Shown here piece after piece: positions 27,578-59,721 of a stretch of 64,000 nucleotides of DNA (the first letter of the stretch is position 1; every line of letters starts with the position of its first letter). The position numbers and the translations under genes are program-made. The stretch is from Candidatus Anderseniibacteriota bacterium (GTDB lineage Bacteria; Patescibacteriota; Andersenbacteria; UBA10190), in NCBI GenBank assembly GCA_016197005.1, contig JACPWO010000001.1, positions 474,544 through 538,543 of the forward strand, written 5' to 3'. Under the pieces are notes generated by a model. The model worked only from the letters and a program-made list of their open reading frames with translations, did no database searches and had not been told where the DNA came from.

Positions 27578-27694
<117 letters not shown>

Positions 27695-38811: not shown

Positions 38812-40338
38812 ATGAACATGCCTTCATTCCTTCGCCCAAAAAGGGCGTTATTCGCAGTTGTCGCTGGTGTTGTAATAGTTGTACTGGCATTACTTATATG
38901 GGTTAGCATAATCCTCCTGCGTCAATCAGCTAACAATGTCCCGGCCATTCCTTTTTTCGGCACCCTGCCTGGATCCGACATACTTCAACGGCTAGTTGAC
39001 CAGGGGACTACTCCAGCGCCCACATCGCCGACACCCACGAGTAGCGTTTTGGCTACGCCCACATTACCACCCACGTCAGTGGGACAAAATCTTGAGGTAA
39101 CAGTGACCTTCACACGAACACCTCAGTTTACATTTCATATAGAGAGTGTTGGCTTTACGGGAGATGCGCCAAACGTGGCTGATTTTGATCCCCGCAATGG
39201 TGATCGATTTTTTAATGTGAATGTGATCGGTACCAGCAATCAAACAATCGCCACGTATCCAACGATGATAGCAACTACCGAGATCGCGGAAAATGCAACC
39301 TCCGCTCAAATACGTCCGTATGATAATTCTCGTGCTCGAATTATATTGCCCGCCACTACTACTCCACTAACAGGAGTTGAGTTGCGTTCAGTAACTGGTG
39401 CCTTGCTTGATTCCCAAACTATTAGCAGTAGTGAGATATCACTGCTTGATATAAAAAGAAAGTTAGCGGCTTTGCGAGGCGCCTTTACTGGATGGCGTCC
39501 GGTTGTACTAGCACAAGATATTCCACTTGACGATCCTTGCCAGGCCCTAGCACCAGTTGATCCTGAAACCGGGCAGCCGCGAAGTCTTTCACACTACACG
39601 ATTGCAATTACTAATGAAGGAACGACGAAGAGCGAAGAGGAGGTAAAAGTAATTCTAGAACAGATTGAAACGCAGGCAGACGCAATGATCAGCACAATTT
39701 CTCCTTGGTCACTCTATGCTCCTTGTATTGATGCTGTCATTGCAGTAAACGACCAAACATTCGGTGATTGCGTTCTCACCCAGGGCGCATTCCCTTCTTG
39801 CCCTAATCAAAAAACCGTCCCACGTCAAGATGGAGATGTGTCAATTGTCGTTCACCTTGATACCCCTTGTGATTGCACTACTACTCCAGAAAATTTCCCG
39901 GCATATACCGTAGTGGGAACTGGTATCAGTACAAATATGCTTGCTCACGCCTTAGGCCACGCCACCGGCAAGATGACTGACGAATATTTGTATCAGCAAA
40001 ATAATACGTATTCACTACCGGGGAAAAATTGTTTTCCTACGCAAGAGGCTTGTTCGTCGTTCGCTTCGTCTTCTGGGATTGGTATTGAGTGCACCTCTGG
40101 CTGCAGCACGGTAGAAGAATACCGTCCCTCGACCGCTATTATGCACAAGACAATGACGGGGACATACGGCGAGTTTGAAACGTGTATTTTGCGCAATAAA
40201 CTGGCCCGAGCAATTGGTTTCCGTGCCGATGATGAAGGTGGCCACATTAATCCCGCCTGTGATGGGAGTGGCGGACAAAGTCGACCGCAAGATCCCGCCC
40301 CGCAAGGCGAGTACTTTGGTGGTCGGCGTGTATTCTAA
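38812..40338 (+). CDS. Secreted/membrane-anchored Cys-rich hypothetical protein; contains AHALGHATG metzincin-like (E-less) motif
   Basis: N-terminal TM anchor, PT-rich linker, multiple Cys pairs, HALGHATG segment. Confidence 0.55.
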   Translation: MNMPSFLRPKRALFAVVAGVVIVVLALLIWVSIILLRQSANNVPAIPFFGTLPGSDILQRLVDQGTTPAPTSPTPTSSVLATPTLPPTSVGQNLEVTVTFTRTPQFTFHIESVGFTGDAPNVADFDPRNGDRFFNVNVIGTSNQTIATYPTMIATTEIAENATSAQIRPYDNSRARIILPATTTPLTGVELRSVTGALLDSQTISSSEISLLDIKRKLAALRGAFTGWRPVVLAQDIPLDDPCQALAPVDPETGQPRSLSHYTIAITNEGTTKSEEEVKVILEQIETQADAMISTISPWSLYAPCIDAVIAVNDQTFGDCVLTQGAFPSCPNQKTVPRQDGDVSIVVHLDTPCDCTTTPENFPAYTVVGTGISTNMLAHALGHATGKMTDEYLYQQNNTYSLPGKNCFPTQEACSSFASSSGIGIECTSGCSTVEEYRPSTAIMHKTMTGTYGEFETCILRNKLARAIGFRADDEGGHINPACDGSGGQSRPQDPAPQGEYFGGRRVF

Positions 40339-40347
40339 CTGCATCCA

Positions 40348-42147
40348 ATGATTGAATCATTTCTCACGATAATTCTTGCTCCCTTGATTGCTCTGGCAGC
40401 AACACAGCAAGTCTCTATTGTCCCACAAGATACACAGTATGGGGCACTAGCAGCCGCGCAGATATATAACAGCGGATTTTCGACTAACCCAGTCGGAGGA
40501 TCAGTACCAACAGCAGCGCGCGGAACACTAACCGCGTTTCTTATTACAAACCAAGAACACGGAACGCCAGGGGAGCCGGTGGTGGTACGAGCATTGATTC
40601 GTAATGATAGCGCCGGTCCCGCTCGAGATGTAGCGGTAGAACTTTTAGCAGAAGGCGGACTTGAAATAACATCCGTCGAACCAACGGCGGATGATCAAGA
40701 CGAAGACTCACTAACCTGGTTTGCACCTGATATTATTCCTTATGAATATCTGACATATGATATTACTTTCGCTACTTCTTCGCCCGGCCATCTTACCTTG
40801 CGCGTGCAATATCAGAATACAGACGGCAAAGCTTCCGTAGAAACAACTCGGGGGTTAGTGGCGGCTGACGAAGATACCAACCCGACGGAAGAATCGTCTC
40901 CCAGCAGCGCATCTCCGACGCTCGGCGTTAACTTTCAAACCGCGCTGAAAAACGGCACGTATGTCATATTCTGCGGTGATGAAAATGACAGTGAGTGCGC
41001 TGAAAAAAAACCGACACTTGGTAGTCGGTTTAACGAAGCGGTTGCTTCGATCGAACCCGGGGAATGCCGAGTAAACAGTGACGATATCATTGTGACCCCC
41101 GAATATCACGATGCGCTTGGACGAAAATCTCGGCCAGCAGCATATTTTATGTTTCCACTATACGAATCCGGTCAAGATTTTAAGAAATTAGTAGTAGAAA
41201 ATGAAATTGATGGCATTAAAAACATCATTGCAGTCCGCCGCAAACTACTCCCCATATGGCTCGCTTGCGTAAATAAAAAGCAGACACAGGCAGATTGCAA
41301 CCAAACATTAACGGAAGCTCAAAAGAATTTGCTCAAGGATTATGAGGCCATTCAAGATCGGCGGAAAGACCGATTTTCGCCCATTGCTAAACAAGCAGTT
41401 AATAATGCGAATGAATCAATTCGCCGTTCATGCGGTGTTGATTCCGAAAACAACTTACAAGGACCTATCGATGGTGTCCAAAAAGTCTACGAAAGCACAC
41501 TAGATGCTCGAGAGCAGGCCTATACGCCAACGCAAGCTACTTTTATTGCTCTTCTGGGAAACCCGCGTGATGTCAAAGACCCATATAGTGTGTTCGGATA
41601 CGCCCTAACAAACTCCTATCAAGCACACACAACAATTGATAAAAGTCGGGACGAAGCAGTTCGGCTGGAGAATTGGGAAGTCATGCTCGACTCTCCCAAG
41701 ACAGACGCAACGACCTGTGAGAAGGAAATTGTATTTAAAGAACGAGTAGAACGAACCGCTTGCGAGTCTGGTAATTACACGCAAGATATAATCCGAGATG
41801 CTCCAACGCCCGTGAAAGCGAGGCAAGGGTCCATTCAACCACCAAATATTCCTGGTAACATTCCAGAACAATATGCTAACAAACAAACCGTTACCATTGA
41901 AGATCAAGCGCTCGTCGGCGAAGTGTGCGGAGGCCGTCCCGGAGATCCGTATTGGGCCGCCGATTGTTCCTGTAAATGTAACGATGTTTTGAGCTCAGCT
42001 GGCAACGTAATTCCCAAAGGTGATGCAACTGGTGCTGGATTTAACTTATGCCAAGGACAAAAAGAAATAACCCGTCATGATATTTTTGTTACCGATCAGG
42101 CTGAATGCTTAAAACAAGGAGACGAAAGCGATGAAGAATCCTTTTAG
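40348..42147 (+). CDS. Secreted hypothetical protein with Cys-rich C-terminus
   Basis: N-terminal hydrophobic signal/anchor; no known motif; tight spacing within co-directional block. Confidence 0.55.
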   Translation: MIESFLTIILAPLIALAATQQVSIVPQDTQYGALAAAQIYNSGFSTNPVGGSVPTAARGTLTAFLITNQEHGTPGEPVVVRALIRNDSAGPARDVAVELLAEGGLEITSVEPTADDQDEDSLTWFAPDIIPYEYLTYDITFATSSPGHLTLRVQYQNTDGKASVETTRGLVAADEDTNPTEESSPSSASPTLGVNFQTALKNGTYVIFCGDENDSECAEKKPTLGSRFNEAVASIEPGECRVNSDDIIVTPEYHDALGRKSRPAAYFMFPLYESGQDFKKLVVENEIDGIKNIIAVRRKLLPIWLACVNKKQTQADCNQTLTEAQKNLLKDYEAIQDRRKDRFSPIAKQAVNNANESIRRSCGVDSENNLQGPIDGVQKVYESTLDAREQAYTPTQATFIALLGNPRDVKDPYSVFGYALTNSYQAHTTIDKSRDEAVRLENWEVMLDSPKTDATTCEKEIVFKERVERTACESGNYTQDIIRDAPTPVKARQGSIQPPNIPGNIPEQYANKQTVTIEDQALVGEVCGGRPGDPYWAADCSCKCNDVLSSAGNVIPKGDATGAGFNLCQGQKEITRHDIFVTDQAECLKQGDESDEESF

Positions 42148-42895
42148 CAGTCCGGCTACCTGGGTGGCTATTAGTTTTTTAGCAGTCGGTATTTTTCTCC
42201 TTGCTTGGTGGTATAGCAGCCAGGATACGACTGCGTTTCCTGCCAATACTCCATCTCTAAAAACAATTGCGCAAAAAATACTGGAGCCAGTGATGCCGAC
42301 TACTATTCCGGCTGAACCCAATGATGCGTTTACTACCTATCTAGAAGCGGCGACCGGAATATCCGAACAAACCTCTTATACGGCTCGATACAAACTATAT
42401 GCTGGCGTTACCGGTCAGATAACAGAAGGGCTTTCCCAAGAGGAAGAGGTAGCTGCATATGTTGAAGAAGAGAGAAAAAACTTACTGCCTTCAGACTTTG
42501 CAATTCCGCCGCTGGACGCGACGGCTACCGAAGTTACTGCCTACCAACAATCTATCTCACCTACCGCAAACCCAGCGATAACTGCGGTTACGAGCCCAGC
42601 GATTGCGGATGCCTTTCGTAAGTATTTTCAGAACCCCACCACCTCTGCCCTAGATAGGATTAATCAAGATCTCGAAACCACCATTGCTGAACTCAATCGC
42701 ATAGCTGTGCCTGAATCTTTGCGCCCTTGGCATACTGAATACATTCATCTCCATGCGCTCCTGTTAGAAAATATCCAGCTTCTTAAAACAATGCCAGAAG
42801 ATCCCATCGGTGGTCTCGTTGCCGCCCGGAATATTCAAGAACTCGGTGATCGCTTCAACCAACTAGCGAAGGCGCTCAATACGCTGGTACCATAA
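42131..42895 (+). CDS. N-terminally anchored hypothetical protein, paralog family member A
   Basis: N-terminal TM; C-terminal ~70 aa similar to the next two genes (IAELNRIAVPESL...LLENIQLLKTM). Confidence 0.55.
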   Translation: MKNPFSSPATWVAISFLAVGIFLLAWWYSSQDTTAFPANTPSLKTIAQKILEPVMPTTIPAEPNDAFTTYLEAATGISEQTSYTARYKLYAGVTGQITEGLSQEEEVAAYVEEERKNLLPSDFAIPPLDATATEVTAYQQSISPTANPAITAVTSPAIADAFRKYFQNPTTSALDRINQDLETTIAELNRIAVPESLRPWHTEYIHLHALLLENIQLLKTMPEDPIGGLVAARNIQELGDRFNQLAKALNTLVP

Positions 42896-42901
42896 GAAGT
42901 C

Positions 42902-43801
42902 ATGCCTTCTTCAATCAACCGTTTAGGAATAGTGGTCGCTGGTATTGCGGCGCTTGTCATCGTTGCCATTTGGACCCTTTTCATGGGTACACGAGCAGTG
43001 TGGCGACACTTTCATGAACCTGCACCGATCGCGACAGAAGAACATAAAACTGACGTATTATCCGATCAGGACACGGACCAAGACGGCTTAAGCGATGACT
43101 TAGAACCCATATACCGCAGTAACCCAGTTGTTGCTGATACTGACCTGGATGGGACAAACGATGGTGACGAGGTAGTAGCCTTACGCGACCCAACAACTGC
43201 TGGGCCAGACGATGCACTTTTTCCAGAAAACGTCACAAATAACGCCCTTAATGAGAATACGCTGACAAATAAATATCTTCAGACTCTCCCCGCCGATGCG
43301 CCTAGAGAAGAAGTGCTGTCGCCAGAAAAACTTGAAGGATTTGTCGATCAAAATCGCCAACAATTTCTTCCTCAACCTGCTTCTATCCTCATAAAAACCA
43401 CAACCGAGGAGGGGAGAGCAGCAATTGAGGCCTATTTAAACACTGTCTCTTCTTCGCACAATACTAAACTCGTTTTTATATCGAGCGATGACATTGCTCA
43501 GGCATTTCAAAAAAGCTTTGGGCAAGAACAGCATGCTGACTTAGACGCCATTATTGAAAAATTAAAAGCAAATATTGCCATTTTAAAAGAGGCGGCCGCA
43601 CCCGCTGAAGCGGCAGAATTACACAAGAAGCTTGTAGCTGCCAGTGAAGCCCTACTCCAGAACGTACAACTTCTGCGAAATATGAAGGTAGACTATGTAG
43701 CGGGCTTGATTGGTGCAAAAAATCTAGAAGGATTGGCGACAACGTTCACTGAGATAACTACGAGTATTAAAGACCTCGAGTCGAAGTACGGGCTTGAGTA
43801 A
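42902..43801 (+). CDS. N-terminally anchored protein with Asp-rich calcium-binding (thrombospondin type-3-like) repeats, paralog B
   Basis: DQDTDQDGLSDDLE and DTDLDGTNDGDE repeats; C-terminal region paralogous to genes A and C. Confidence 0.55.
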   Translation: MPSSINRLGIVVAGIAALVIVAIWTLFMGTRAVWRHFHEPAPIATEEHKTDVLSDQDTDQDGLSDDLEPIYRSNPVVADTDLDGTNDGDEVVALRDPTTAGPDDALFPENVTNNALNENTLTNKYLQTLPADAPREEVLSPEKLEGFVDQNRQQFLPQPASILIKTTTEEGRAAIEAYLNTVSSSHNTKLVFISSDDIAQAFQKSFGQEQHADLDAIIEKLKANIAILKEAAAPAEAAELHKKLVAASEALLQNVQLLRNMKVDYVAGLIGAKNLEGLATTFTEITTSIKDLESKYGLE

Positions 43802-43815
43802 GCTATACTAACGCC

Positions 43816-44778
43816 ATGTCACGGCGAATTGTTATCGCCATCCTAGTGGTCCTTATCCTTGGTGTCCTTGCCGGTACCGTGTGGCTTGTTATTTCTCGTT
43901 TACGCGCAAACGCTCCCACGGACACAGCCAATGACACCACTCCGGGAACATTGGAAGAAGCTCCTACAGGTGGCCAAAATATAGTAAATCCTACCGGTGA
44001 TGATGACGGGGATGGTCTTTCAAATGCCGATGAGTCTATTTGGGGAGCTGATCCTAAAAATGCCGATACTGACGCAGATGGGTTTAAGGATGGCGAAGAG
44101 GTACGCAATAGCCATAATCCAACGATTGCTGGGCCAAACGACATCCTACCGGATGGATTTACACCAGGAAAAGAAATAACACCTATTGAAGCCGCTCCGG
44201 CTCAACCAATTGCGGTTGACCAGTTTTTTGAAGAGAATGTAAATTTAGAAATTGCGCCAGGTAGAAATTTAACTCTGGAATATGAAAGCAAATACCCAGA
44301 AGATCAGCGAACAGAGGCCAGTTTAATGGATTTTGTCTATCAACAATCTATCGAAGTAAAACTGCCCACCCCTTCCGTTAACTCAACAAATATTTTACAA
44401 CGAGAAGCGAACGCTGCCGACATTAATGCATATGTAGAAGAAGTGGGAAGTTTAGATTTCTTAGGAAACGAGCAAGTAATACAACTAGCGTTGAACGAAC
44501 TACTCAACAATGAAGATCCAACTCTAATTCAAAGTCAAGCAGTACAATTGCAGGTATATCAACAGCTTTTAATTAAGACCCCCGTACCTAAACAAGCAGA
44601 GAGTGTTCACAAATTACTACTAGGCTATAGTGAACTTGCAACAGCCACTTATAATCAAGCCGCTCTTCACCCCGTTGATCCCGTGAAAGCCCTTGTAGCT
44701 ATAAACCAACTCGAATTGATAAATGGGCAATATTTGCCTTTAATTGAACAAGAATTAAATCGCCTTCTCTTAGACTAG
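43816..44778 (+). CDS. N-terminally anchored protein with Asp-rich calcium-binding repeats, paralog C
   Basis: DDDGDGLSNADE and DTDADGFKDGEE repeats; conserved C-terminal helical region shared with A and B. Confidence 0.55.
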   Translation: MSRRIVIAILVVLILGVLAGTVWLVISRLRANAPTDTANDTTPGTLEEAPTGGQNIVNPTGDDDGDGLSNADESIWGADPKNADTDADGFKDGEEVRNSHNPTIAGPNDILPDGFTPGKEITPIEAAPAQPIAVDQFFEENVNLEIAPGRNLTLEYESKYPEDQRTEASLMDFVYQQSIEVKLPTPSVNSTNILQREANAADINAYVEEVGSLDFLGNEQVIQLALNELLNNEDPTLIQSQAVQLQVYQQLLIKTPVPKQAESVHKLLLGYSELATATYNQAALHPVDPVKALVAINQLELINGQYLPLIEQELNRLLLD

Positions 44779-44860
44779 GAAGAACTTTGGCAGGCCGGTA
44801 TCTTAATTAGGCTATAGCTTCTTTCTTTGCCAAACTCTGTTAGAATATGTCTAACTTGCT

Positions 44861-46720: not shown

Positions 46721-46726
46721 AGTTAC

Positions 46727-48808
46727 TTGATGCCATCACTCAAAAAACTTTACCGACCACTACAGCTCCTTCTGATTGGAATGAGTTTTGCTTTTCCGGG
46801 TGGTGCCTCAGCAGAAGAAGTTTACGACATCAGAAACGCAGAACCCATGTACGTCCTTACTTACAATAAGGCAACTCTTATTAGCCAGTACGGGTGTCAA
46901 GAAGTACCAACAGAAGATCGAGTTAATGATTTAGGGTTTGTTGCCTTTGTTATTCCTGATGGTCAAGTGCTAATTAAAACAGTAGAAAGTGAAACCGGGC
47001 AAAATGCTCAAGCAACCAAAAAAGTGTTTGCGTTTGCGTGGGCAATGTGCACAGAAGCACAAGCAGAGGCGGCTTATAAATCACAACCTCAAATTGAAAC
47101 CGGTATCACGCTGGAAGGTGTCCAATATTACGCAGCACAAATAATAAGTTCGGTATTGTGGATGGTAGCCGAAATCGGATTATGGCTACTACAACTTGCC
47201 AGTAAGCTGCTTTTTCCGGTTTTAACCGCGGGGGCTTTTATTACGAACGATATCGTACAAAAGGGGTGGCCTTTCATCCAAGGCTTGGCAAACCTTGGCT
47301 TTATCCTAGCGTTACTAGCAATAGCAGCTTTAACTGTCCTGCGTATTGACGTTGGCGGCGGAGTAAAGCGGCTGCTTCCTCGCCTTTTGATTGCTGCACT
47401 GCTTATTAACTTCAGCCTTGTTATAGGCGGGGTTATTATCGATTCCTCTCGAGTTGTTATGGCTATTTCTTGGCAAATCCTTAAAGGTAGTTCAGGGGCA
47501 ACTCCAGATAAATTAGGGGCTCGGATCATAGATAATTCTCAGCTTATGAAGAATGTTTTTTGTCCGGTAGGATCAGGGGCAAATGCATCATGCGTAGGTG
47601 GTAGCTTCGAGCTTCAGGGGAAAATATATACAACCTGGGATGGTGTTTTAAAAGTTGCAGAGGCAACAATATTTATTTGGGTCATCACAGGAGCCTTGCT
47701 CGTGCTGGCAATTATGCTCTTCATACGCCACGTGGCTCTATTACTACTCCTTATAGTTTCTCCCTTGGCGTATCTGGCTGCCGCGATGCCAGCAGCTGGT
47801 AAATTTGCCTCGCAATGGTGGGAAAATTTCTTGCGATACGTTATTTATGGTCCGGTAGTCATGCTTATTCTCACAATCATTGCTGCCTTAACCGAATCCG
47901 AGAGTGCGGGTGCTGGAATCGATGTAAAATCTTCGTCACTGCGAAATATTATGGAAATGTCGGTGGTTACAGTCTTGATCATAGTAGCAGCAACTGCGGG
48001 TAAATATGTTGGAATGTACGGAGCGGGAGCAGCAGTCGGATTTGTGAAGGGTTTACCAGGACGCGCAGCTAGAAATCCCAAGAAAACTGCCGCCTTAGCT
48101 GCTGGCATTGCTACCGGAGGGCTTGGGTTAGTTCCTAGTCTAGCCGCTGCCGGCGGAACAGCCTATGGAATACGACGCACACAAGATGCCTGGAAAAAAT
48201 TCCAAACTGGTAGAAAGAAAACCCAAGAAAAGAAAGAAAAAGCCTCCTTTATGCAAAGAGCGGGCGAAGTCGGTTTTCGCAAAGCAACCAAAGAAGCAAG
48301 AGGTAGAAATGAAGCATTCAGAGACGCTCGAGTGCAGGGAGATCTTAGTCGCTTAAGTAGAGCTGAACTTACTACCAACCCAGCTCTTTCTCCAGAAAAA
48401 CTAGCTAATCCTTCATTCCTTACGGGGTTAGGAAAATCTAATATTCAAGAAATATTGAAACGAGGAACCAGGAGCCAGCGTGTCGGAATTGCAGCCAGTG
48501 TTGGATCTATGAAGCAAGAATCACCTGCCATGAAGACCGTAATTGACGGGGTAATTAACCAACAAACATTTGATGTTTACAACAGTGCTCAACAAGTTAT
48601 TAATGACCCTACTGCCACCCAAGGAGCAAAAGACAAGGCTGCAAATGAAATTGATGGTATTAATCGTGTTCTGCGCAGTTTGGCAAACAACGAAAAACTT
48701 GTTGATAAAATGGATGCAGGTCAGATACAGCAAATGCTAGAACACGAAGATACGAAAACCACAGATGATCTTTTAAAGAGCCTTAGTAAGACACGGTCTA
48801 GCGGATAA
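46727..48808 (+). CDS. Polytopic membrane protein, VirB6/TrbL-like candidate (T4SS-like inner-membrane component) with Lys/Ala-rich C-terminal tail
   Basis: Signal peptide, ~120-aa extracellular domain, >=6 TM helices, ~230-aa hydrophilic tail; lies next to a VirB4-like ATPase. Confidence 0.5.
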   Translation: MMPSLKKLYRPLQLLLIGMSFAFPGGASAEEVYDIRNAEPMYVLTYNKATLISQYGCQEVPTEDRVNDLGFVAFVIPDGQVLIKTVESETGQNAQATKKVFAFAWAMCTEAQAEAAYKSQPQIETGITLEGVQYYAAQIISSVLWMVAEIGLWLLQLASKLLFPVLTAGAFITNDIVQKGWPFIQGLANLGFILALLAIAALTVLRIDVGGGVKRLLPRLLIAALLINFSLVIGGVIIDSSRVVMAISWQILKGSSGATPDKLGARIIDNSQLMKNVFCPVGSGANASCVGGSFELQGKIYTTWDGVLKVAEATIFIWVITGALLVLAIMLFIRHVALLLLLIVSPLAYLAAAMPAAGKFASQWWENFLRYVIYGPVVMLILTIIAALTESESAGAGIDVKSSSLRNIMEMSVVTVLIIVAATAGKYVGMYGAGAAVGFVKGLPGRAARNPKKTAALAAGIATGGLGLVPSLAAAGGTAYGIRRTQDAWKKFQTGRKKTQEKKEKASFMQRAGEVGFRKATKEARGRNEAFRDARVQGDLSRLSRAELTTNPALSPEKLANPSFLTGLGKSNIQEILKRGTRSQRVGIAASVGSMKQESPAMKTVIDGVINQQTFDVYNSAQQVINDPTATQGAKDKAANEIDGINRVLRSLANNEKLVDKMDAGQIQQMLEHEDTKTTDDLLKSLSKTRSSG

Positions 48809-49413
48809 TGACTCTTATGCCGTCTACTAACTTCTCTGGTATACCTGCCGCATCCTTGGTAATGATTCCCGAGGATAGACGCGCAGAATATATTCGAGCG
48901 CTACGAGCGCTACCTGTAACTTTACTTAAGGCTACTACTTCCGCAAAAACTGGTGCCTACATACTAGGTCTAGCAAAAACGCATGATATCCCCTTGGCAC
49001 AAGTAGAGAATATTTCTTTTGCTATATTTGAAATATTAATTGGCAAAAAAATATTAGTTCAGTTACCTAGTATTTTTTCAACCGAGCTACAGGTTGCTAA
49101 TGACAAAGCTCAGACAATGGCAAGAGAAGTAGAACGTGACTTAATTGCTCCTATATCGTCCGAATTAAATCGATATCTAGCTGATCAAAAAAAAATACAA
49201 GGAAGCATAAGTTCTAAGATTGGAAAGCAAAAATCTAAGCCAGTAGCTACTTCTCCAGCGTTGTCACCAACAACCAACTCAAAACCGGAAATTAGAACAT
49301 TTTCCACCCCTCCATCATTAAAGCGAATACCAAATAAACCTGCAATTCCTCCAAACATTCTTGATCTAAAAAAGAAGTGGGAACAACCAAAGCCCCCACC
49401 AATTCCCAACTAG
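48808..49413 (+). CDS. hypothetical protein, Pro/Lys-rich C-terminus
   Basis: 201-aa ORF translationally coupled to the upstream gene (overlapping stop/start). Confidence 0.4.
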   Translation: MTLMPSTNFSGIPAASLVMIPEDRRAEYIRALRALPVTLLKATTSAKTGAYILGLAKTHDIPLAQVENISFAIFEILIGKKILVQLPSIFSTELQVANDKAQTMAREVERDLIAPISSELNRYLADQKKIQGSISSKIGKQKSKPVATSPALSPTTNSKPEIRTFSTPPSLKRIPNKPAIPPNILDLKKKWEQPKPPPIPN

Positions 49414-50102
49414 CGTTCTGTTTCCTCAATTTTTAGCTGTCCAACGTCGTGTAATCTCTGATTGTGGGATGTCATTGGGTTATAGAAGTTATAAAACAGC
49501 TCTAAAAGTTCAGGGGTTTTTAAAGGTACGGCCCGTAGTCCAATTGCTCGCAGACCGCTAGCCACTTGCTCAACCCGTTGATACAACTGGGCACGATAAT
49601 GTCCAAATTCTTGCTCCGTAATTTTCTGGTTCCCGGTTGCTGCTTTTGCTCCTTTAAATATACGAGCAAAGAATCCTTCTTTGGAGGCTTGAGTAACTGA
49701 AAATGGGATAGTTACAAAAAATGTTTTTGTCATAATACTACTGTCTTTTACTAATTCACTGACGAAGTTAATATATTCTCCCATTTGAACTCGGAGCAGC
49801 TCATTTTGTTGTTTTTCCCGTAGTACCTTGACTTCTTCGAGATAGGGGGTGATATCTGCTTTGCGAGAAGAAATAGTTATCTGAATAGGATAATCAAGAG
49901 AGTTGAGAAAGTCTTGGTAGGCAAAGATAATAGCACTCTGTTCGTCTTCAGACTTTAGGGCGAAGTTAATCGAGGAAACCATAATGACTGCTCGCATTGT
50001 CCCATCATTCAATACTAGAACTCCATCTCGAATTTCTTTAAGACGCACCAGTACCTGGGAGGGTTTCCCTTTCTTCTCTGTTGATTTCATTTCATCGACC
50101 AT
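49410..50102 (-). CDS. hypothetical soluble protein
   Basis: 230-aa ORF divergent from the VirB4-like gene; no motif recognised. Confidence 0.45.
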   Translation of the reverse strand: MVDEMKSTEKKGKPSQVLVRLKEIRDGVLVLNDGTMRAVIMVSSINFALKSEDEQSAIIFAYQDFLNSLDYPIQITISSRKADITPYLEEVKVLREKQQNELLRVQMGEYINFVSELVKDSSIMTKTFFVTIPFSVTQASKEGFFARIFKGAKAATGNQKITEQEFGHYRAQLYQRVEQVASGLRAIGLRAVPLKTPELLELFYNFYNPMTSHNQRLHDVGQLKIEETER

Positions 50103-50106
50103 AGTT

Positions 50107-50553
50107 CTACTGAGGGACAGTTAAAGGATCTTCTTCATCTACTTTAGAAATATTACCTTCTGTTTCAAGCGAACGCGAGGTAGCTGCTAAAGCAGAAAAG
50201 TCTTCTTGGGCTGATCCACGAGCGATGAGTAATTCCTCCCACTCTGCATCCTGAATAACAAGAATGCGAGGGGTCTTTGTGCGCTGCCAGATATATAATT
50301 GGCCACTAGAGTAAAAGCGGAAAGCAGACGACACCGTTGAAGCGAGAGACTTACCATTAACTTTCCAATGAGCAAATGCGGCCGCTATACCCAGCACAGG
50401 GAAAGCAGCAGAAAAAAAGAGAGCAAGATCAGAAAACAAGAATACTGGCACTAGCGTTAGAGCCGCAGCTACATACATAAGAAACTGTTTTAGGGTAAGC
50501 GGCCCCAAAATTTTATCTTCAATATCAACAAACTGCGGTACCTGATAACGCAT
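50107..50553 (-). CDS. Small 2-TM protein, PrgI/VirB3-like candidate
   Basis: 148 aa; N-terminal MRYQVPQFVDIEDKILGPLTLKQF followed by two adjacent TM helices, as in PrgI/VirB3-type proteins. Confidence 0.4.
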   Translation of the reverse strand: MRYQVPQFVDIEDKILGPLTLKQFLMYVAAALTLVPVFLFSDLALFFSAAFPVLGIAAAFAHWKVNGKSLASTVSSAFRFYSSGQLYIWQRTKTPRILVIQDAEWEELLIARGSAQEDFSALAATSRSLETEGNISKVDEEDPLTVPQ

Positions 50554-50600
50554 CGTCTTTGCATTATAGCAGAAACTAACGTGTGGTATGATGCAGAGAT

Positions 50601-52454
50601 ATGAGCATTGTGAAAGATGCCGTTTCTTACCTTCGCGGCAATAAAGGCGATAAAACCGCAGCTACAGCTGACCATAAAAAAGCTGAGGGAGAAAGCGAGC
50701 GCCAATTTAATGAAGGAATATCTTCATTGACGGATATTTTAGCTCCGGCCGGATATAAGGTGGGGCCACGCCATTTAGAAATAGACGGCAAGTATGTGAC
50801 TACTCTTTTCGTTACAACGTACCCCCGTTATTTAGACACAAACTGGTTTTCACCAATTGTGAACTTTGACGTTGAGTTTGACGTTTCCATGTTCATCTAT
50901 CCGCAAGATACAGCGGCTATGCTTAAAGTTCTTCTAAAACGAGTTACTCAGGTATCTGCCTCTATCTCCATGAAGACGGAGCAAGGGAAAGTTCGCGATC
51001 CACAATTAGAAACGGCTTACCAAGATATTGAAGAGCTGCGCGATCGACTGGTACAAGGCACGGAACGTTTTTACAAGTTCGGCATGTACTTAACTCTGTA
51101 TGCCGATAGCGAAAAGGACCTTGATGATGTGCTATCTCAGATCCAGGTACTTCTGGAGGGGCGCCTGGTATATGCCAAACCTGCGCTTTTCCAAATGGAC
51201 CTGGGCTTTACTTCCACACTTCCATTAGGAAATGATCGACTTGCAGTAAATACCAACATGAATACTTCACCTCTTTCCACAACATTCCCATTTGTTAGCT
51301 CCGACTTAACAAGTAATTCTGGTGTTTTATATGGCATTAACCTCCACAACAGCAGCCTTGTCTTATTTGATCGTTTCAGTTTGGAAAACGCGAATATGGT
51401 CATATTCGCCAAATCCGGTGCGGGTAAAAGCTATACGGTAAAGCTTGAAGTGCTGCGCTCTCTCATGTTTGGAACAGAAGTCATTATTATTGATCCGGAA
51501 CAAGAGTATCGCTATCTATCAGAGGCAGTGGGAGGAAGTTACTTAAAAATTGCTATTGCGTCTGATCACCGTATTAATCCCTTCGATCTACCAGAATTAA
51601 ACGAAGATGAAGAACCAGACTCAGTTCTTCGTGAAAACGTTATCCGCCTTATTGGTCTTGTTACTCTCATGGCTGAAGGACTTTCTGCTGAAGAGCAGTC
51701 GGTCGTAGATAAGGCCCTCTGGGAAACATATGCTTTGAAAGACATAACGCCAGGCGTTCGCTGGCAAAAACCAGAGGTACCTACTCTCCAAGACTTCTAT
51801 AACATCTTAAAAGAAATGGATGGGGGCACAAACGCTGCTACACGACTTCAACGATTCGTTGAGGGAACGTTTGCTGGCGTATTCAATAGACCAACCAATA
51901 TTGATCTAGATAAGCAGCTCGTTGTATTTAACATCCGCGACATGGAAGAGGAGCTGCGCCCGATTGCTATGCACGTTGTACTCGGATACATCTGGAATCG
52001 TGTGCGCTCGAAACTTAAAAGGCGCCTGTTAGTAGTAGATGAGGCGTGGATCATGATGAAACACGAAGAGTCAGCTAAATTCTTGTTTTCCATGGCGAAA
52101 CGCGCTCGTAAGTACTACTTAGGAGTCACTACTATTACACAAGATATTCAAGATTTCCTTGCATCAAAATATGGCAAACCAATTGTCACCAACTCCTCTA
52201 TCCAGCTTCTTTTACGGCAAAGCCCGGCAGCAATCGATATGTTAGCTCAGGTGTTTTACTTAACTGATCATGAAAAATTCCGTCTCCTGGAATCTGACGT
52301 AGGCGAAGGTATTTTCTTTGCTGGTTTAAAACATGTGGCAATCAAAGTTATTGCGAGTTACGCAGAAGATCAGATTATTACTTCCGATCCACGGCAAATT
52401 TTAGCTATTGAAGCCGCTAAGAAGGAAATGCAAGAGCAAGAACTTACTAACTAA
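50601..52454 (+). CDS. VirB4/TraC-family T4SS-like ATPase
   Basis: Walker A FAKSGAGKSYTV; Walker B LLVVDEAWIMM with the VirB4-characteristic DEAW; ~600 aa, no TM. Confidence 0.75.
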   Translation: MSIVKDAVSYLRGNKGDKTAATADHKKAEGESERQFNEGISSLTDILAPAGYKVGPRHLEIDGKYVTTLFVTTYPRYLDTNWFSPIVNFDVEFDVSMFIYPQDTAAMLKVLLKRVTQVSASISMKTEQGKVRDPQLETAYQDIEELRDRLVQGTERFYKFGMYLTLYADSEKDLDDVLSQIQVLLEGRLVYAKPALFQMDLGFTSTLPLGNDRLAVNTNMNTSPLSTTFPFVSSDLTSNSGVLYGINLHNSSLVLFDRFSLENANMVIFAKSGAGKSYTVKLEVLRSLMFGTEVIIIDPEQEYRYLSEAVGGSYLKIAIASDHRINPFDLPELNEDEEPDSVLRENVIRLIGLVTLMAEGLSAEEQSVVDKALWETYALKDITPGVRWQKPEVPTLQDFYNILKEMDGGTNAATRLQRFVEGTFAGVFNRPTNIDLDKQLVVFNIRDMEEELRPIAMHVVLGYIWNRVRSKLKRRLLVVDEAWIMMKHEESAKFLFSMAKRARKYYLGVTTITQDIQDFLASKYGKPIVTNSSIQLLLRQSPAAIDMLAQVFYLTDHEKFRLLESDVGEGIFFAGLKHVAIKVIASYAEDQIITSDPRQILAIEAAKKEMQEQELTN

Positions 52455-52463
52455 GACTAGATA

Positions 52464-52886
52464 ATGGCTACGTACAACGCAGAATCCCAAAATGCAGCAC
52501 GCTTAAATTTTGATCGCCGTCTCAGCCAGACACAACCGCAAGGTACTTCATCAAATCGAAATCCAGCAAGCAATTTAGCGAGCCGATTACCAGGCGCGTC
52601 AATGGCACAACGTCTGGGCCTTAACAAAAACCAGAGAGCGCAGAGAAAACAACCACAAGATATAAGCGAGAAAGCACTATCAACCGCACTGACTGCAGCA
52701 AAATTTGTTGCTAAAAGACTTGCGTGGATGCTTATGACGTGGCTATTCGGAATTCTCATCTGGCTTGCTCCATGGATACTACTTATTTCCTTAGTTCTGC
52801 TTATAATTATTGTTATCTTTGATGCAGGCGCCCTCGAAGCAGCTCGAGACACCTTCGTAGAATTGACCGTAAAAAGTCACCCATAA
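52464..52886 (+). CDS. Small membrane protein, hypothetical (T4SS-like module)
   Basis: 140 aa, long C-terminal TM hairpin (WMLMTWLFGILIWLAPWILLISLVLLIIIVIF). Confidence 0.4.
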   Translation: MATYNAESQNAARLNFDRRLSQTQPQGTSSNRNPASNLASRLPGASMAQRLGLNKNQRAQRKQPQDISEKALSTALTAAKFVAKRLAWMLMTWLFGILIWLAPWILLISLVLLIIIVIFDAGALEAARDTFVELTVKSHP

Positions 52887-52888
52887 TT

Positions 52889-53350
52889 ATGAGAACAAAA
52901 ATCCTATTTTCTCTTTTTGTTACCCTGCTTACATTCAGTGGGATACTTATTAATTCTATTCCCGTACTCGCACAGGACGAGGAGGATCCATGCGCAGAGA
53001 GTCCATTCGGATGTTTTGAAGCTCCTTTACCGGGCATATTTGATGGAAAAATTCTTGATTATGTAAAAGATAATGAAGGAAGTGCCCTAACATCTTACGT
53101 TGGCACTGTTGTTGAGTTTGTTACCGCTACGATTATCATCGTTGGCCTCATTCTTATTGTGGGCGGAGGTTATGTGTATATGACTGCTGGGGGCAGCGCT
53201 GAACGCGTAGGAACCGCTAAAACAATGATTGGCTCTGCTTTGCTAGGAATAGTTCTGGCCTTAGTAGCAGTTCTTATCTTAAATACGCTTAGCCCTCAAT
53301 TTGCTGAGCAGGCAAAAGAACCTTGTATTGGCGAAGACTGCCCAGAGTAA
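52889..53350 (+). CDS. Pilin-like protein (VirB2/TrbC-like topology)
   Basis: Signal peptide (cleavage near VLAQDE), then two hydrophobic helices (VVEFVTATIIIVGLILIVGG; IGSALLGIVLALVAVLILN); Cys at both ends. Confidence 0.45.
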   Translation: MRTKILFSLFVTLLTFSGILINSIPVLAQDEEDPCAESPFGCFEAPLPGIFDGKILDYVKDNEGSALTSYVGTVVEFVTATIIIVGLILIVGGGYVYMTAGGSAERVGTAKTMIGSALLGIVLALVAVLILNTLSPQFAEQAKEPCIGEDCPE

Positions 53351-54503
53351 GAGCTATTAATACAAAGTGTAGTATCGCTAAATCGTTCTTCCAAAAGATA
53401 GTGTCAGTAAAACCAAAGAGTATTAATACAAATAAAGCTAAAGCCACAGAAAACTTGAGACCTCTTTGGTAAAATATCCAGACGTGAAGAACAAGAAAGG
53501 CTCCTACCCCCACTAATCCGGTATTAAGCCAAAAAGAGAGAACCAAACTATGTGGATCCCTATACACAAATTCACTAAGTGGCTTTTTTTGTGATCTAGA
53601 GTTTTTAAAACTCTCAAAACGCTCGTGAAGTTTTCCTTGGTATGCCGGCTCAAAAGTTCCCAGCCCAATGCCAAGGATTGGGTTTTCTCGAATGAGTTCC
53701 CCCGAAATATCCCATAGTTGTAGTCGAACATATGCAGAACTGGCTGGTTGTAATAAGTAACTCGTCTTTTGAACGCTCACCCATACCGCAATCACCAACA
53801 AAATACTTACTGAGATTAAGACGAGAGGTTTTCTTGTTAACTGTATGTGTGGACGTAATGAGATTGTTCCTAAAAAAAGAACTACTATCACTGTCAGAAT
53901 ACCAGCCAGTGACTTTGTTCCCAGCAGGGCTATAAACATGGTACCGGCCATCAAGTAATTGATCTGCCATCCTCCAATTTTTATTCTTGTAAAAACGGCC
54001 AATACAATTAACGGCGCAAGAAAAAGTGCCAGGGATGCAGGGACATCATACACGCTCCGAATTCGATCAAGTGTTCCAATCTGACTAATGCCAATAAGCG
54101 CCACCACTACCCCTGATGTAATAAGCGCATTTAAGATATAGTCTCGTATCTTAGGAAATCTCCAAGTAGCTATATATACCTGAGCGGCATATAGCAAAGG
54201 GACTAATATCCACCCTTTTAAAACTCCAAGACTCGTCTCAGGGTGAGGAGAAATGATAGTAGAAACAACTGCTGCTGCAACAAAGAGAAGGAGACAAGTA
54301 GCTACTGGCCATGGTAGGACCCACATAACTTCTTTCCAACTTCGCCTCATTGTGGGTTGCAGAAACCCTGCAATTGTCACCCCAATAATCAGCACCTCAA
54401 GTACGTTTGTAGGAATACCCAATACGGAAAACCGCACCAGATACGTCGGTAAGAGAGCGGCTATCGCTATGAGGCCGTATCGGTAGAGAGGCTCAGTGCC
54501 CAT
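53289..54503 (-). CDS. Polytopic membrane protein, O-antigen ligase/Wzy-like candidate
   Basis: ~10-12 TM helices with a larger loop; adjacent to GT2 and Wzx genes. Confidence 0.45.
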   Translation of the reverse strand: MGTEPLYRYGLIAIAALLPTYLVRFSVLGIPTNVLEVLIIGVTIAGFLQPTMRRSWKEVMWVLPWPVATCLLLFVAAAVVSTIISPHPETSLGVLKGWILVPLLYAAQVYIATWRFPKIRDYILNALITSGVVVALIGISQIGTLDRIRSVYDVPASLALFLAPLIVLAVFTRIKIGGWQINYLMAGTMFIALLGTKSLAGILTVIVVLFLGTISLRPHIQLTRKPLVLISVSILLVIAVWVSVQKTSYLLQPASSAYVRLQLWDISGELIRENPILGIGLGTFEPAYQGKLHERFESFKNSRSQKKPLSEFVYRDPHSLVLSFWLNTGLVGVGAFLVLHVWIFYQRGLKFSVALALFVLILFGFTDTIFWKNDLAILHFVLIALTLGSLRQYKVLLPAQQIEG

Positions 54504-57287: not shown

Positions 57288-57364
57288 ACTGGGGAATTAT
57301 ATGTGGAAAACTCTGTGGGAAAAGGGGTCGTCATCTGTGTACAAGTCTGGACACTAATACTAGT

Positions 57365-59709: not shown

Positions 59710-59721
59710 TTCAGTAGCGAA

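What the first reader, a model, noticed from the sequence alone, without database searches (positions are those of the whole stretch)
38812..53350. 14.5-kb co-directional block of secreted/anchored hypothetical proteins ending in a minimal type IV secretion-like module
Downstream of rsmA, all on the plus strand with 7-83-nt gaps, sit four large signal/anchor-bearing proteins of no recognisable family and three tandem paralogs. They are followed by a VirB6-like polytopic protein, a VirB4-like ATPase (DEAW Walker B), a small TM protein and a pilin-like protein. Two small genes sit on the opposite strand, one PrgI/VirB3-like. No VirD4 coupling protein, relaxase, integrase or transposase was seen. 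This looks like a chromosomal secretion/pilus or DNA-uptake apparatus with putative cargo/adhesins rather than a conjugative element. The composition (VirB4 + VirB6 + pilin only) is atypical and the upstream proteins are uncharacterised.
Basis: partly seen in the sequence, partly recalled or inferred. Interest (0 to 1): 0.85.

Follow-up and report, generated by a model that had tools for sequence, protein, structure and literature searches.

The report
Patescibacteria type IV secretion locus
This block is the chromosomal type IV secretion gene cluster that nearly all ultra-small "candidate phyla radiation" bacteria carry and that was described in 2023-2025, here in an Andersenbacteria genome with some lineage-specific surface-protein genes and a small local inversion, so it is a good example of a known system and not a new one.

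Summary
In detail: 14 intact genes lie at the stated coordinates. The block is the origin-proximal, relaxase-less, MPF-FATA-derived T4SS locus typical of Patescibacteria (Wang 2023; Quinonero-Coronel 2025), in a Candidatus Andersenbacteria MAG.

It comprises:
- an extended VirB6
- PrgI/VirB3
- VirB4 (NCBIfam CD1110 family, above cutoff; PDB 4ag5, 8e-43)
- one VirB2-like pilin

Gene order is conserved across 80 related loci. rsmA lies upstream and Wzy downstream in most loci long enough to show them. dnaA is 8.6 kb downstream in the window.

Two uncharacterised families are conserved with the core. One is a bitopic TSP3 calcium-repeat plus four-helix-bundle family, present here as three paralogs. 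The other is a small soluble protein between VirB6 and PrgI. C619, a secreted helical plus Ig-like protein, is restricted to Andersenbacteria. The first two genes are a variable insertion: an M64-like peptidase with HExxH mutated to HALGH, and a DUF11 surface protein.

One feature is unique here. The prgI-trsD pair is inverted relative to 73 of 73 relatives, and an identical Logan-assembled contig shows the same arrangement.

The function is inferred, not shown: a pilus or channel used for host interaction, not for conjugation.

Novelty: new member of a known kind. Interest is modest.

The parts
38812..40338 (+). A508: N-terminally membrane-anchored extracytoplasmic protein with an M64-like metallopeptidase motif region. 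The catalytic Glu is replaced (HALGH at residues 379-383). Variable accessory gene.
   Evidence: One TM segment at residues 13-31. Only one homologue (56% id) among 5.8e9 clusters. Homologues carry HELGH..DEY or HELAH..DEY and hit PF09471 Peptidase_M64 weakly (E=2e-4, 0.031; window copy 0.25). Found in 2 of 37 eligible related loci.
40348..42147 (+). B599: Sec-signal-bearing surface protein with an N-terminal DUF11 beta-sandwich domain, an unknown middle domain and a Cys-rich C-terminal domain. Variable accessory gene.
   Evidence: DUF11 E=0.0039 in the window copy. 9 of 10 sampled relatives hit DUF11, down to 1e-36. 68 representatives among 1.84e9 proteins. Found in 3 of 37 eligible related loci.
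42131..42895 (+). P1: bitopic paralog of P2 and P3 that lacks the TSP3 repeats.
   Evidence: TM at residues 9-27. BLASTP to P2 E=6e-17. P-family HMM E=5e-27.
42902..43801 (+). P2: bitopic protein with an N-terminal TM helix, two TSP3 calcium-binding repeats and a C-terminal helical bundle.
   Evidence: DUF6376 hit at E=8.9e-6, below cutoff.
43816..44778 (+). P3: the same architecture as P2. This is the member of the family that is conserved next to T4SS genes across Paceibacteria-type loci.
44861..46720 (+). C619: Sec-secreted protein with a helical N-terminal half and an Ig-like beta-sandwich domain (about residues 330-511). Its mature N-terminus is almost invariant (ADPHAxFYTAIGQQQLFFNVLAALDQADYVEP). 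Restricted to Andersenbacteria.
46727..48808 (+). Extended VirB6-like polytopic membrane protein: signal peptide, about 6 TM segments between residues 137 and 430, and a C-terminal hydrophilic region of about 260 aa. An ATG at 46730 is the likelier start.
   Evidence: TrbL/VirB6 E=0.0063. 10 of 41 orthologues hit TrbL, best 6.8e-10. TM profile. Found in 45 of 46 eligible loci, same strand. The family profile hits the VirB6-slot protein of a Pontibacillus plasmid module at 5e-8. The gene call in L081 starts at the position equivalent to 46730.
48808..49413 (+). D201: small soluble (no TM) protein of an uncharacterised family that always lies between VirB6 and PrgI.
   Evidence: Iterated HMM search found it in 48 of 63 eligible loci, same strand. 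No Pfam and no PDB sequence match for the family profile.
49410..50102 (-). TrsD/TraC-like protein, homologous to the N-terminal part of VirB4.
   Evidence: TraC_F_IV profile positions 15-180, E=5.7e-5. NF045971 CD1110 VirB4 model positions 11-121, E=1.8e-9, and NF041427 TrsD E=7.3e-6. PF26593 TraC-like in precomputed hits. Present in 73 of 73 eligible loci.
50107..50553 (-). PrgI/VirB3-like small membrane protein.
   Evidence: PF12666 PrgI 30.4 bits, above the cutoff of 27. Present in 63 of 67 eligible loci.
49414..50578 (.). Segment of about 1.17 kb carrying prgI-trsD, inverted relative to every related locus. Breakpoints are approximate: the left one is at a palindromic CTAG that serves as the stop codon for both D201 and trsD, and the right one lies within the 47-nt prgI/virB4 spacer.
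   Evidence: In relatives PrgI, TrsD and VirB4 are co-directional, with 0 of 73 and 0 of 63 on the opposite strand. blastn shows reverse-oriented alignment over 49415-50559. No flanking inverted repeat. A Logan-assembled contig of run SRR12113388 is 100% identical over 42848-57228 and includes the inversion.
50601..52454 (+). VirB4 ATPase without its extreme N-terminus. Walker A is AKSGAGKS and Walker B is LLVVDEAW.
   Evidence: NF045971 conju_CD1110 E=9.3e-110, 368 bits against a cutoff of 325, model positions 185-733 of 752. P-loop_TraG 2e-25. PDB 4ag5 8e-43 and TrwK 6e-11. 56-84% identity to 80 Patescibacteria loci.
52464..52886 (+). E140: small protein with a long polar, basic N-terminal region and a C-terminal TM segment. 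Fast-evolving positional analogue of the gene that follows virB4 in relatives.
   Evidence: TM at residues 101-119. No sequence homologues were detectable, but 11 of the 12 Andersenbacteria-level loci examined have a protein of the same architecture in this slot.
52889..53350 (+). VirB2-like T4SS pilin precursor: signal peptide followed by two hydrophobic helices.
   Evidence: TrbC/VirB2 E=0.0028 and T4SS_pilin E=0.017. Mbov_0395 pilin-like E=8.5e-4. 13 of 16 orthologues hit PF18895, best 1e-17. Topology. Found in 43 of 47 eligible loci.

Best explanation
The block is the vertically inherited, origin-proximal type IV secretion locus of a Candidatus Andersenbacteria (Patescibacteria/CPR) genome. 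It belongs to the Patescibacteria clade of MPF-FATA-like (monoderm) T4SSs.

Shown:
- It encodes a cytoplasmic-membrane translocon made of an extended VirB6, a PrgI/VirB3 and a VirB4 ATPase.
- The extreme N-terminal region of VirB4 is supplied as a separate TrsD-like polypeptide.
- It also encodes one Sec-exported VirB2-like pilin.
- No coupling protein, relaxase or integrase was found among the window ORFs that were Pfam-scanned.

Inferred: VirB4 hexamers, docked on VirB3/VirB6 with TrsD, power extraction and polymerisation of the pilin into a pilus or conduit across the monoderm envelope. This structure contacts the host cell on which the epibiont lives and moves macromolecules. The direction and the substrate are unknown. 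Protein export and nucleic-acid or nutrient import are both open. Conjugation is unlikely.

Four further genes are co-oriented and conserved with the core. The bitopic calcium-repeat/four-helix-bundle proteins (P1-P3) and the small soluble D201 protein are conserved across Paceibacteria-type loci. The secreted helical plus Ig-like C619 protein is conserved only within Andersenbacteria. The small TM protein E140 is conserved in position and architecture only. These are most likely lineage-specific accessory subunits or envelope adaptors of the machine.

The first two genes are a recent, variable insertion of surface proteins: an M64-like pseudo-peptidase and a DUF11 protein. Their link to the machine rests on proximity only.
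For: Identity of the core.

Split VirB4: TrsD_230 matches positions 11-121 of NCBIfam model NF045971, and the 617-aa ATPase matches positions 185-733 of the same model.

Lineage: the 80 best VirB4 loci are all CPR MAGs at 56-84% identity. The best plasmid-borne VirB4 in PLSDB is at most 38% identical. The source proteins are annotated as a Candidatus Andersenbacteria MAG.

Synteny among eligible loci, always in the same order and orientation:
- TrsD 73 of 73
- PrgI 63 of 67
- VirB6 45 of 46
- pilin 43 of 47
- D201 family 48 of 63
- P family 30 of 41
- rsmA 27 of 37
- Wzy 24 of 40
Three independent metagenome contigs found through distant P-family members show the same order.

Selection: VirB4 (77-84%) and TrsD (65-70%) are far more conserved than the flanking housekeeping uvrD (50-54%) and rsmA (42-49%) in the same genome pairs.

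Chromosomal context: rRNA, IF-2, uvrD and rsmA lie upstream. Wzy, glycosyltransferases, yidC, jag and dnaA (61923-63305) lie downstream.

Literature:
- The same composition, the missing relaxase and the KsgA and dnaA proximity are described for Patescibacteria in PMC12102498.
- The homologous cluster is essential for epibiotic growth of a Saccharibacterium (PMC10633639).
- Tubular structures at a parasite-host interface have been suggested to be T4SS pili (bioRxiv 10.64898/2026.06.21.733656).
Against: - No experiment or structure exists for this lineage, and the function of the Patescibacteria T4SS is stated to be 'completely unknown' (PMC11665869).
- The VirB6 and pilin assignments for the window proteins themselves are below Pfam thresholds. 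They rest on orthologues, and no structural model was made of them.
- No VirB8- or VirB1-like component was identified.
- The roles of P1-P3, C619, D201 and E140 rest only on conserved position and predicted topology.
- A coupling protein or relaxase could be encoded elsewhere in the genome, which I could not see.
- In this genome prgI-trsD is inverted, so the core is not a single operon.
Confidence: 0.8

Rival explanations
1. The machine is an import device. It would be a ComB/Ced-like uptake system that pulls host nucleic acids or other macromolecules into the epibiont, not an export or effector system.
For: - There is no coupling protein or relaxase nearby, as in the H. pylori ComB system.
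- There is a weak generic match of VirB4 to the archaeal DNA-import ATPase CedB (E=7e-11).
- A review proposes the T4SS as a candidate nucleotide-acquisition route because competence is dispensable in S. epibionticum (PMC11665869).
- A 2026 preprint links host-RNA feeding and VirB4.
Against: - The CedB match is far weaker than the match to conjugative VirB4 families (9.3e-110) and reflects shared ATPase ancestry.
- No nuclease, ComEC-like channel or nucleic-acid-binding protein is encoded in the block.
- Nothing in the sequence indicates the direction of transport.
Confidence: 0.25
2. The block is a decayed or domesticated integrative conjugative element that still mobilises DNA, with its relaxase and T4CP encoded elsewhere.
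For: - VirB4 belongs to a conjugative family (CD1110).
- The trsC-trsD-trsE-like order matches Gram-positive conjugative plasmids (own knowledge; PMC12102498).
- T4CP homologues do occur far from virB4 in many Patescibacteria.
Against: - No integrase, relaxase, T4CP, flanking repeats or tRNA target was found.
- GC content is only slightly lower than that of the flanks.
- The same chromosomal neighbours (uvrD/rsmA upstream, Wzy or jag downstream) recur across class-level distances.
- VirB4 is more conserved than its housekeeping neighbours.
- Relaxases occur in only 103 of 3,035 Patescibacteria genomes.
Confidence: 0.05
3. The genes upstream of VirB6 (38812-46720) are ordinary envelope or surface proteins. 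They merely sit beside the T4SS because the neighbourhood is inherited vertically, and they play no role in secretion.
For: - A508 and B599 are present in only 2-3 of 37 eligible related loci, and their order varies.
- None of these proteins matches any known T4SS component by sequence or fold.
- The flanking rsmA and Wzy genes are equally syntenic without being T4SS parts.
- A Bacillota module with the same five-gene core lacks the P, C619 and D201 families.
Against: - The P family keeps its position and strand, directly before a secreted protein and VirB6, in 30 of 41 eligible loci and in distant contigs at 25-28% identity.
- Spacings are 6-82 nt, or overlapping, in one direction, which suggests co-transcription.
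- All are extracytoplasmic or membrane-anchored, as expected for envelope-spanning accessory parts.
Confidence: 0.3

Closest known systems
Patescibacteria-clade T4SS (S. epibionticum SEML1_0006-0019, Wang et al. 2023, PMC10633639; survey by Quinonero-Coronel et al. 2025, PMC12102498)
   Same: - VirB4 with an adjacent TrsD and PrgI/VirB3, plus VirB6 and a VirB2-like pilin in a monoderm.
- No relaxase or T4CP at the locus.
- Chromosomal, near dnaA and next to ksgA/rsmA.
- No VirB7/9/10.
The Andersenbacteria class is included in that survey.
   Different: - A single pilin gene, where Saccharimonadia and Microgenomatia often carry arrays.
- No peptidase or lysozyme directly downstream of virB4.
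- prgI-trsD is inverted.
- The accessory families (P1-P3, D201, C619) do not appear under the terms I searched in the paper's main text or stored supplements.
CD1110-family VirB4 modules of Bacillota, for example Pontibacillus sp. ALD_SL1 plasmid NZ_CP062975.1 (352-361 kb)
   Same: The same five-gene core in the same order logic. There are two pilins (profile E=1e-15), a VirB6-like protein (5e-8), a small PrgI-like protein, a TrsD-like protein (1.6e-26) and VirB4 (36% identity, 6.6e-135).
   Different: - The pilins lie upstream, not downstream.
- A large M23 peptidoglycan hydrolase follows virB4.
- It has no P, C619 or D201 families.
- It sits on a megaplasmid.
- Sequence identity is only about 36%, against 56-84% within CPR.
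Gram-positive conjugative T4SSs of the pGO1/pSK41 and pIP501/pCF10 type (MPF-FATA)
   Same: TrsC(VirB3)-TrsD-TrsE(VirB4) gene order, a VirB6-like PrgH/TraL, and no outer-membrane core complex (PMC12102498; own knowledge).
   Different: Those systems have a relaxase, a T4CP, VirB8-like proteins (PrgL/TraM) and a VirB1-like hydrolase, and they lack VirB2 pilins. None of these proteins was found in the block, and a pilin is present.
H. pylori ComB and archaeal Ced DNA-import systems
   Same: VirB4-dependent machines without a relaxase or coupling protein. They offer a possible model for import.
   Different: ComB has VirB7-10 in a diderm envelope. Ced uses CedA/CedA1/CedA2. Only generic VirB4 homology is seen here (CedB E=7e-11 against 9.3e-110 for CD1110).

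Membership tests
Patescibacteria-clade MPF-FATA-like T4SS | VirB4 ATPase related to monoderm (MPF-FATA) VirB4 and nearest to other Patescibacteria VirB4s | tested here: met
   NF045971 at 368 bits, above the cutoff of 325. PDB 4ag5 (Thermoanaerobacter VirB4) at 8e-43. All 80 best genomic loci are CPR MAGs at 56-84% identity, against at most 38% for any PLSDB plasmid. No formal phylogeny was built.
Patescibacteria-clade MPF-FATA-like T4SS | TrsD homologue (VirB4 N-terminal-like) associated with virB4 | tested here: met
   49410-50102 minus strand. NF045971 positions 11-121 at 1.8e-9, TrsD NF041427 at 7.3e-6, TraC_F_IV at 5.7e-5. It is adjacent to virB4 but on the opposite strand.
Patescibacteria-clade MPF-FATA-like T4SS | VirB3/PrgI homologue near virB4 | tested here: met
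   PF12666 at 30.4 bits, above the gathering score of 27.
Patescibacteria-clade MPF-FATA-like T4SS | Polytopic VirB6 homologue | tested here: met
   The window protein gives TrbL E=0.0063, below cutoff. 10 of 41 aligned orthologues hit TrbL (best 6.8e-10), and about 6 TM segments are predicted. The fold itself was not modelled.
Patescibacteria-clade MPF-FATA-like T4SS | VirB2-like pilin gene(s) near virB4 | tested here: met
   Signal peptide plus two hydrophobic helices. 13 of 16 orthologues hit PF18895 (best 1e-17). The window copy itself is sub-threshold.
Patescibacteria-clade MPF-FATA-like T4SS | No relaxase or T4CP at the locus; chromosomal position near dnaA and rsmA/ksgA | tested here: met
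   Pfam scans of the block genes and 26 flanking ORFs (most ORFs of 180 aa or more) found none. rsmA is immediately upstream and dnaA lies 8.6 kb downstream. The rest of the genome was not available.
Conjugative T4SS / integrative conjugative element | Relaxase, type IV coupling protein, and an integrase or att boundaries | tested here: not met
   None was found among the scanned window ORFs. There are no flanking repeats and no tRNA at the borders. A distant T4CP or relaxase elsewhere in the genome cannot be excluded.
VirB8-like (NTF2-fold) component, considered for the bitopic P1-P3 proteins | N-terminal TM helix followed by an NTF2-like alpha+beta periplasmic domain | tested here: not met
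Peptidase M64 (considered for A508) | HExxH...DEY zinc-binding and catalytic motif, with a family-level profile match | tested here: not met
   The profile match is sub-threshold even in homologues (2e-4, 0.031; window copy 0.25). The window copy has HALGH, so the catalytic Glu is absent. It is M64-like in motif only.

The most novel reading that the evidence does not exclude
The conserved but unannotated genes of this locus would be genuine, lineage-specific structural subunits of the Paceibacteria/Andersenbacteria T4SS. These genes are the calcium-binding bitopic four-helix-bundle family (P1-P3), the soluble D201 family between VirB6 and PrgI, and the secreted protein in the slot before VirB6 (C619 here). 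They would take over the roles of the missing VirB8, VirB1 and adhesin components. The variable A508 (M64-like pseudo-peptidase) and B599 (DUF11) proteins would be host-range determinants or substrates of the machine.
Probability: 0.3. Interest if true: 0.55.

Novelty: new member of a known kind. Interest (0 to 1): 0.3.

Why it matters
The Patescibacteria T4SS is one of the few machines known to be essential for the epibiotic lifestyle of a very large and mostly uncultured part of the bacterial domain. Its function is still unknown.

This locus does not change that picture. It does give a compact, cleanly delimited Andersenbacteria example and three useful pointers:
- It separates a conserved core plus two conserved uncharacterised families from a variable surface-protein insertion. 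That narrows the list of candidate missing subunits (the VirB8- and VirB1-like roles) for structural or genetic work.
- VirB4 and TrsD are far more conserved than the neighbouring housekeeping genes, which fits an indispensable role beyond Saccharibacteria.
- The natural inversion of prgI-trsD shows that these genes need not be co-transcribed with virB4.

Tried and rejected
1. P1-P3 as the missing VirB8. Rejected: the high-confidence AF2 model is a TM helix, TSP3 loops and a four-helix bundle. Only generic bundles and MCP or kinase sensor 4HB domains match.

3. The inverted prgI-trsD segment as a site-specific invertible switch or an assembly artefact. There are no flanking inverted repeats, and a Logan-assembled contig is identical. 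I therefore treat it as a fixed rearrangement.

4. Profile searches of the VirB6, pilin and D201 family alignments against PDB sequences found nothing meaningful. Single-sequence PDB searches for VirB6 and TrsD were also empty.

5. E140 homologues were not detectable by tblastn or jackhmmer. Only positional and architectural analogues exist.

6. The M23/LysM peptidase at 34413-35720 as a conserved VirB1 substitute. It is not conserved near virB4: 1 of 80 loci, plus L085.

7. Homology between C619 and the secreted proteins in the same slot in other lineages. None was found.

8. Promoter and terminator consensus scans: promoter-like sites were fewer than in shuffles, and terminator-like sites were more numerous than in shuffles (29 against 17.4, sd 3.6), but no operon structure could be derived from them.

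9. Repeats in the block: none of note.

10. The afdb50 fold library was unavailable.

Full report
**Observation.** Eleven co-directional plus-strand genes run from 38812 to 53350, with spacings from a 17-nt overlap to 82 nt. Two minus-strand genes interrupt them, at 49410-50102 and 50107-50553. Hydropathy gives the following topologies:
- a single N-terminal anchor or signal sequence in the 508-, 599-, 254-, 299-, 320- and 619-aa proteins
- about six TM segments in the 693-aa protein
- none in the 201-, 230- and 617-aa proteins
- a C-terminal TM segment in the 140-aa protein
- a signal peptide plus two hydrophobic helices in the 153-aa protein

The three tandem genes are true but distant paralogs (E=6e-17 and 5e-13; 21-29% identity). 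I count three large upstream proteins, not four.

**Where the window comes from.** The window carries a 16S gene and a 23S gene with a group I intron, separated by protein-coding genes. It also carries IF-2, uvrD, rsmA, yidC, jag and dnaA. Proteins identical to the window's are annotated as coming from a Candidatus Andersenbacteria MAG (locus tags HYR90_05045 to HYR90_05070) on a 576-kb contig. The 80 best genomic matches to the ATPase are all CPR/Patescibacteria MAGs. Andersenbacteria-level loci are 73-84% identical. Moranbacteria, Paceibacteria and other loci are 56-63% identical.

**The core machine.**
- *VirB4.* The 617-aa protein is a VirB4. It matches NCBIfam NF045971 (VirB4-like conjugal transfer ATPase, CD1110 family) at 9.3e-110 and 368 bits, above the curated cutoff of 325. 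It also matches Pfam P-loop_TraG at 2e-25, the Thermoanaerobacter VirB4 structure 4ag5 at 8e-43, and R388 TrwK at 6e-11.
These are NF045971 positions 11-121 (1.8e-9), TraC_F_IV positions 15-180, and the TrsD family (7.3e-6). The ATPase itself starts at model position 185. The two proteins therefore behave as a split VirB4, as TrsD and TrsE do in pGO1.
- *PrgI/VirB3.* The 148-aa protein passes the Pfam PrgI threshold.
- *VirB6 and pilin.* For the window proteins alone these assignments are weak. They hold when the aligned orthologues are scanned: 10 of 41 hit TrbL (best 6.8e-10) and 13 of 16 hit T4SS_pilin (best 1e-17).
- *Missing parts.* No VirB7/9/10, VirB8, VirB1, VirD4, relaxase or integrase was found among the window ORFs that were scanned. 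These were the block genes plus 26 flanking ORFs, which cover most ORFs of 180 aa or more.

**Conservation.** I searched each window protein against the 80 loci by tblastn and iterated HMMs, counting only loci long enough to contain the gene.

| Gene or family | Loci with hit / eligible loci | Strand relative to VirB4 |
|---|---|---|
| TrsD | 73 / 73 | same |
| PrgI | 63 / 67 | same |
| VirB6 | 45 / 46 | same |
| Pilin | 43 / 47 | same |
| D201 family | 48 / 63 | same, always between VirB6 and PrgI |
| P family | 30 / 41 | same, always upstream of VirB6 |
| rsmA | 27 / 37 | same |
| Wzy | 24 / 40 | opposite |
| C619 | 11 / 41 | same (Andersenbacteria only) |
| B599 | 3 / 37 | same |
| A508 | 2 / 37 | same |

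Three contigs reached independently through distant P-family members (25-42% identity) show the same string: rsmA, P, a secreted protein, a VirB6-sized polytopic protein, a small protein, PrgI, TraC-like, VirB4. In several Andersenbacteria relatives uvrD-rsmA abut the P genes directly. A508, B599 and P1 are therefore an insertion or expansion confined to a subclade.

In the same genome pairs VirB4 is 77-84% identical and TrsD 65-70%. The flanking uvrD is 50-54% and rsmA 42-49%. That pattern fits strong purifying selection on the machine.

**What is already known.** This is the system described by Wang et al. 2023 (PMC10633639). In Southlakia epibionticum a T4SS cluster with an unusual Gram-positive-like composition, essential pilins and no recognisable coupling or relaxase proteins is essential for epibiotic growth. 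It was surveyed by Quinonero-Coronel et al. 2025 (PMC12102498), who reported the following:
- VirB4 in 2,417 of 3,035 Patescibacteria genomes, forming a monophyletic clade nested in MPF-FATA
- TrsD as the most abundant associated component
- VirB3/PrgI, VirB6 and VirB2-like pilins nearby
- relaxases in only 103 genomes
- frequent proximity to dnaA and to KsgA (RsmA)

Andersenbacteria genomes are in that dataset. Reviews call the function 'completely unknown', with effector export and nutrient or nucleic-acid import both proposed. A 2026 preprint reports tubular structures at a parasite-host interface that may be T4SS pili.

**Outside the phylum.** The best plasmid-borne VirB4s are from monoderms at 35-38% identity. 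One of them, on a Pontibacillus megaplasmid, sits in a module with two pilins, a VirB6-like protein, a small PrgI-like protein, a TrsD-like protein, VirB4 and an M23 hydrolase. That is the same five-part core, without the P, C619 or D201 families.

**The uncharacterised genes.**
- *The D201 family* has no Pfam or PDB relatives.
- *E140* has only positional analogues of the same architecture.
- *A508* is nearly an orphan, with one homologue in 5.8e9 clusters. Its homologues carry HELGHxxGxxxDEY or HELAHxxGxxxDEY and give weak Peptidase_M64 matches. The window copy reads HALGH (codon GCC), so the catalytic glutamate is missing.
- *B599* belongs to a small family with an N-terminal DUF11 domain. 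Two relatives carry an inserted calcineurin-like phosphoesterase domain.

**An unexpected detail.** In every related locus PrgI, TrsD and VirB4 are co-directional. In the window the prgI-trsD pair is inverted as a unit of about 1.17 kb. Both genes are intact. No inverted repeats flank the segment. The left junction is a palindromic CTAG that supplies the stop codons of both D201 and trsD. A Logan assembly of run SRR12113388 gives a contig 100% identical over 42848-57228, including the inversion. I treat it as a real, lineage-specific rearrangement. The 47-nt divergent spacer contains extended -10-like motifs in both directions: TGCTATAAT before prgI and TGGTATGAT before virB4, read from the sequence. 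These are consensus resemblances only.

**Mechanism.**
- *Shown:* the gene content, the homology, the topology, the conservation and the chromosomal context.
- *Inferred from the known roles of VirB3, VirB4, VirB6 and VirB2 in characterised T4SSs:* VirB4, with TrsD, docks on VirB3/VirB6 in the membrane and energises pilin extraction and pilus or channel assembly. The structure crosses a monoderm envelope and engages the host cell.
- *Unknown:* the substrate and the direction of transport. Conjugation is unlikely because the relaxase and T4CP are absent locally and rare in the phylum.

The P, D201, C619 and E140 proteins are best read as lineage-specific accessory or envelope-adaptor parts. A508 and B599 are best read as variable surface proteins whose connection to the machine is proximity only.

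**Verdict.** This is a correct and careful observation of a real system, but the system is already described. It is a new member of a known kind. The incremental value lies in the conserved uncharacterised families, the variable insertion and the inversion.

Noticed in passing
window 49414-50578: The prgI-trsD pair is inverted relative to all related loci examined (0 of 73 relatives have it on the opposite strand). There are no flanking inverted repeats. A palindromic CTAG at the left junction serves as the stop codon for both D201 and trsD. A Logan-assembled contig is identical across the region.
   Followed up: yes
window 39946-39960 (A508 residues 379-383): The M64-like metallopeptidase motif reads HALGH, whereas homologues have HELGH or HELAH followed by DEY. 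The catalytic Glu is replaced by Ala (codon GCC), which suggests a pseudo-enzyme.
   Followed up: partly
window 49376-49400 (minus strand): A terminator-like hairpin followed by a T-run lies directly after the trsD stop codon, embedded in the 3' end of the D201 coding sequence on the other strand. It may terminate the inverted prgI-trsD transcript, or it may be a chance match.
   Followed up: no
window 50554-50600: The 47-nt divergent spacer between prgI and virB4 holds extended -10-like motifs on both strands, 8-9 nt from each start codon: TGCTATAAT on the minus strand and TGGTATGAT on the plus strand. This hints at leaderless or very short-leader transcripts. No -35 match was found.
   Followed up: no
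window 18406-27695: The rRNA genes are unlinked and interrupted. The 16S gene (18406-19876) and the 23S gene (23760-27482) are 3.9 kb apart, with tRNA-Ile, a CCA-adding enzyme gene, an opposite-strand tRNA-Ala and a mechanosensitive-channel-like gene between them. The 23S gene is about 800 nt longer than the model and contains a group I intron (25851-26102).
   Followed up: no
window 5106-5180 (minus strand): A tRNA-Ile with anticodon UAU, which is uncommon in bacteria. It lies divergent from tRNA-Val(GAC).
   Followed up: no
window 14449-17010: An 853-aa protein with a signal peptide, a central TM segment, Pro/Thr-rich linkers and two C-terminal repeats of about 90 aa containing Cys. It has no Pfam or NCBIfam match and is another uncharacterised surface protein.
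   Followed up: partly
window 50601-52454 and 49410-50102, compared with 35835-38781: VirB4 (77-84% identity) and TrsD (65-70%) are much more conserved between this genome and its Andersenbacteria relatives than the neighbouring housekeeping genes uvrD (50-54%) and rsmA (42-49%).
   Followed up: partly
L086 (Pontibacillus sp. ALD_SL1 plasmid NZ_CP062975.1, 351-361 kb): A Bacillota megaplasmid typed as non-mobilizable carries the same pilin-VirB6-PrgI-TrsD-VirB4 core plus an M23 hydrolase, next to flagellar genes. VirB2-like pilins are therefore not confined to Patescibacteria among monoderms.
   Followed up: partly
P0158 and P0167 (relatives of B599): Some members of the B599 family carry a calcineurin-like phosphoesterase (Metallophos) domain inserted after the DUF11 domain. 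This hints at extracellular phosphoesterase or nuclease activity in relatives.
   Followed up: no
window 53289-60977: Downstream of the pilin gene, all on the minus strand, lie two Wzy/O-antigen-ligase-like genes, three GT2 glycosyltransferases and a polysaccharide flippase, followed by jag/khpB and yidC. dnaA lies beyond them on the plus strand at 61923-63305. Wzy is syntenic with the T4SS locus in 24 of 40 eligible related loci.
   Followed up: partly
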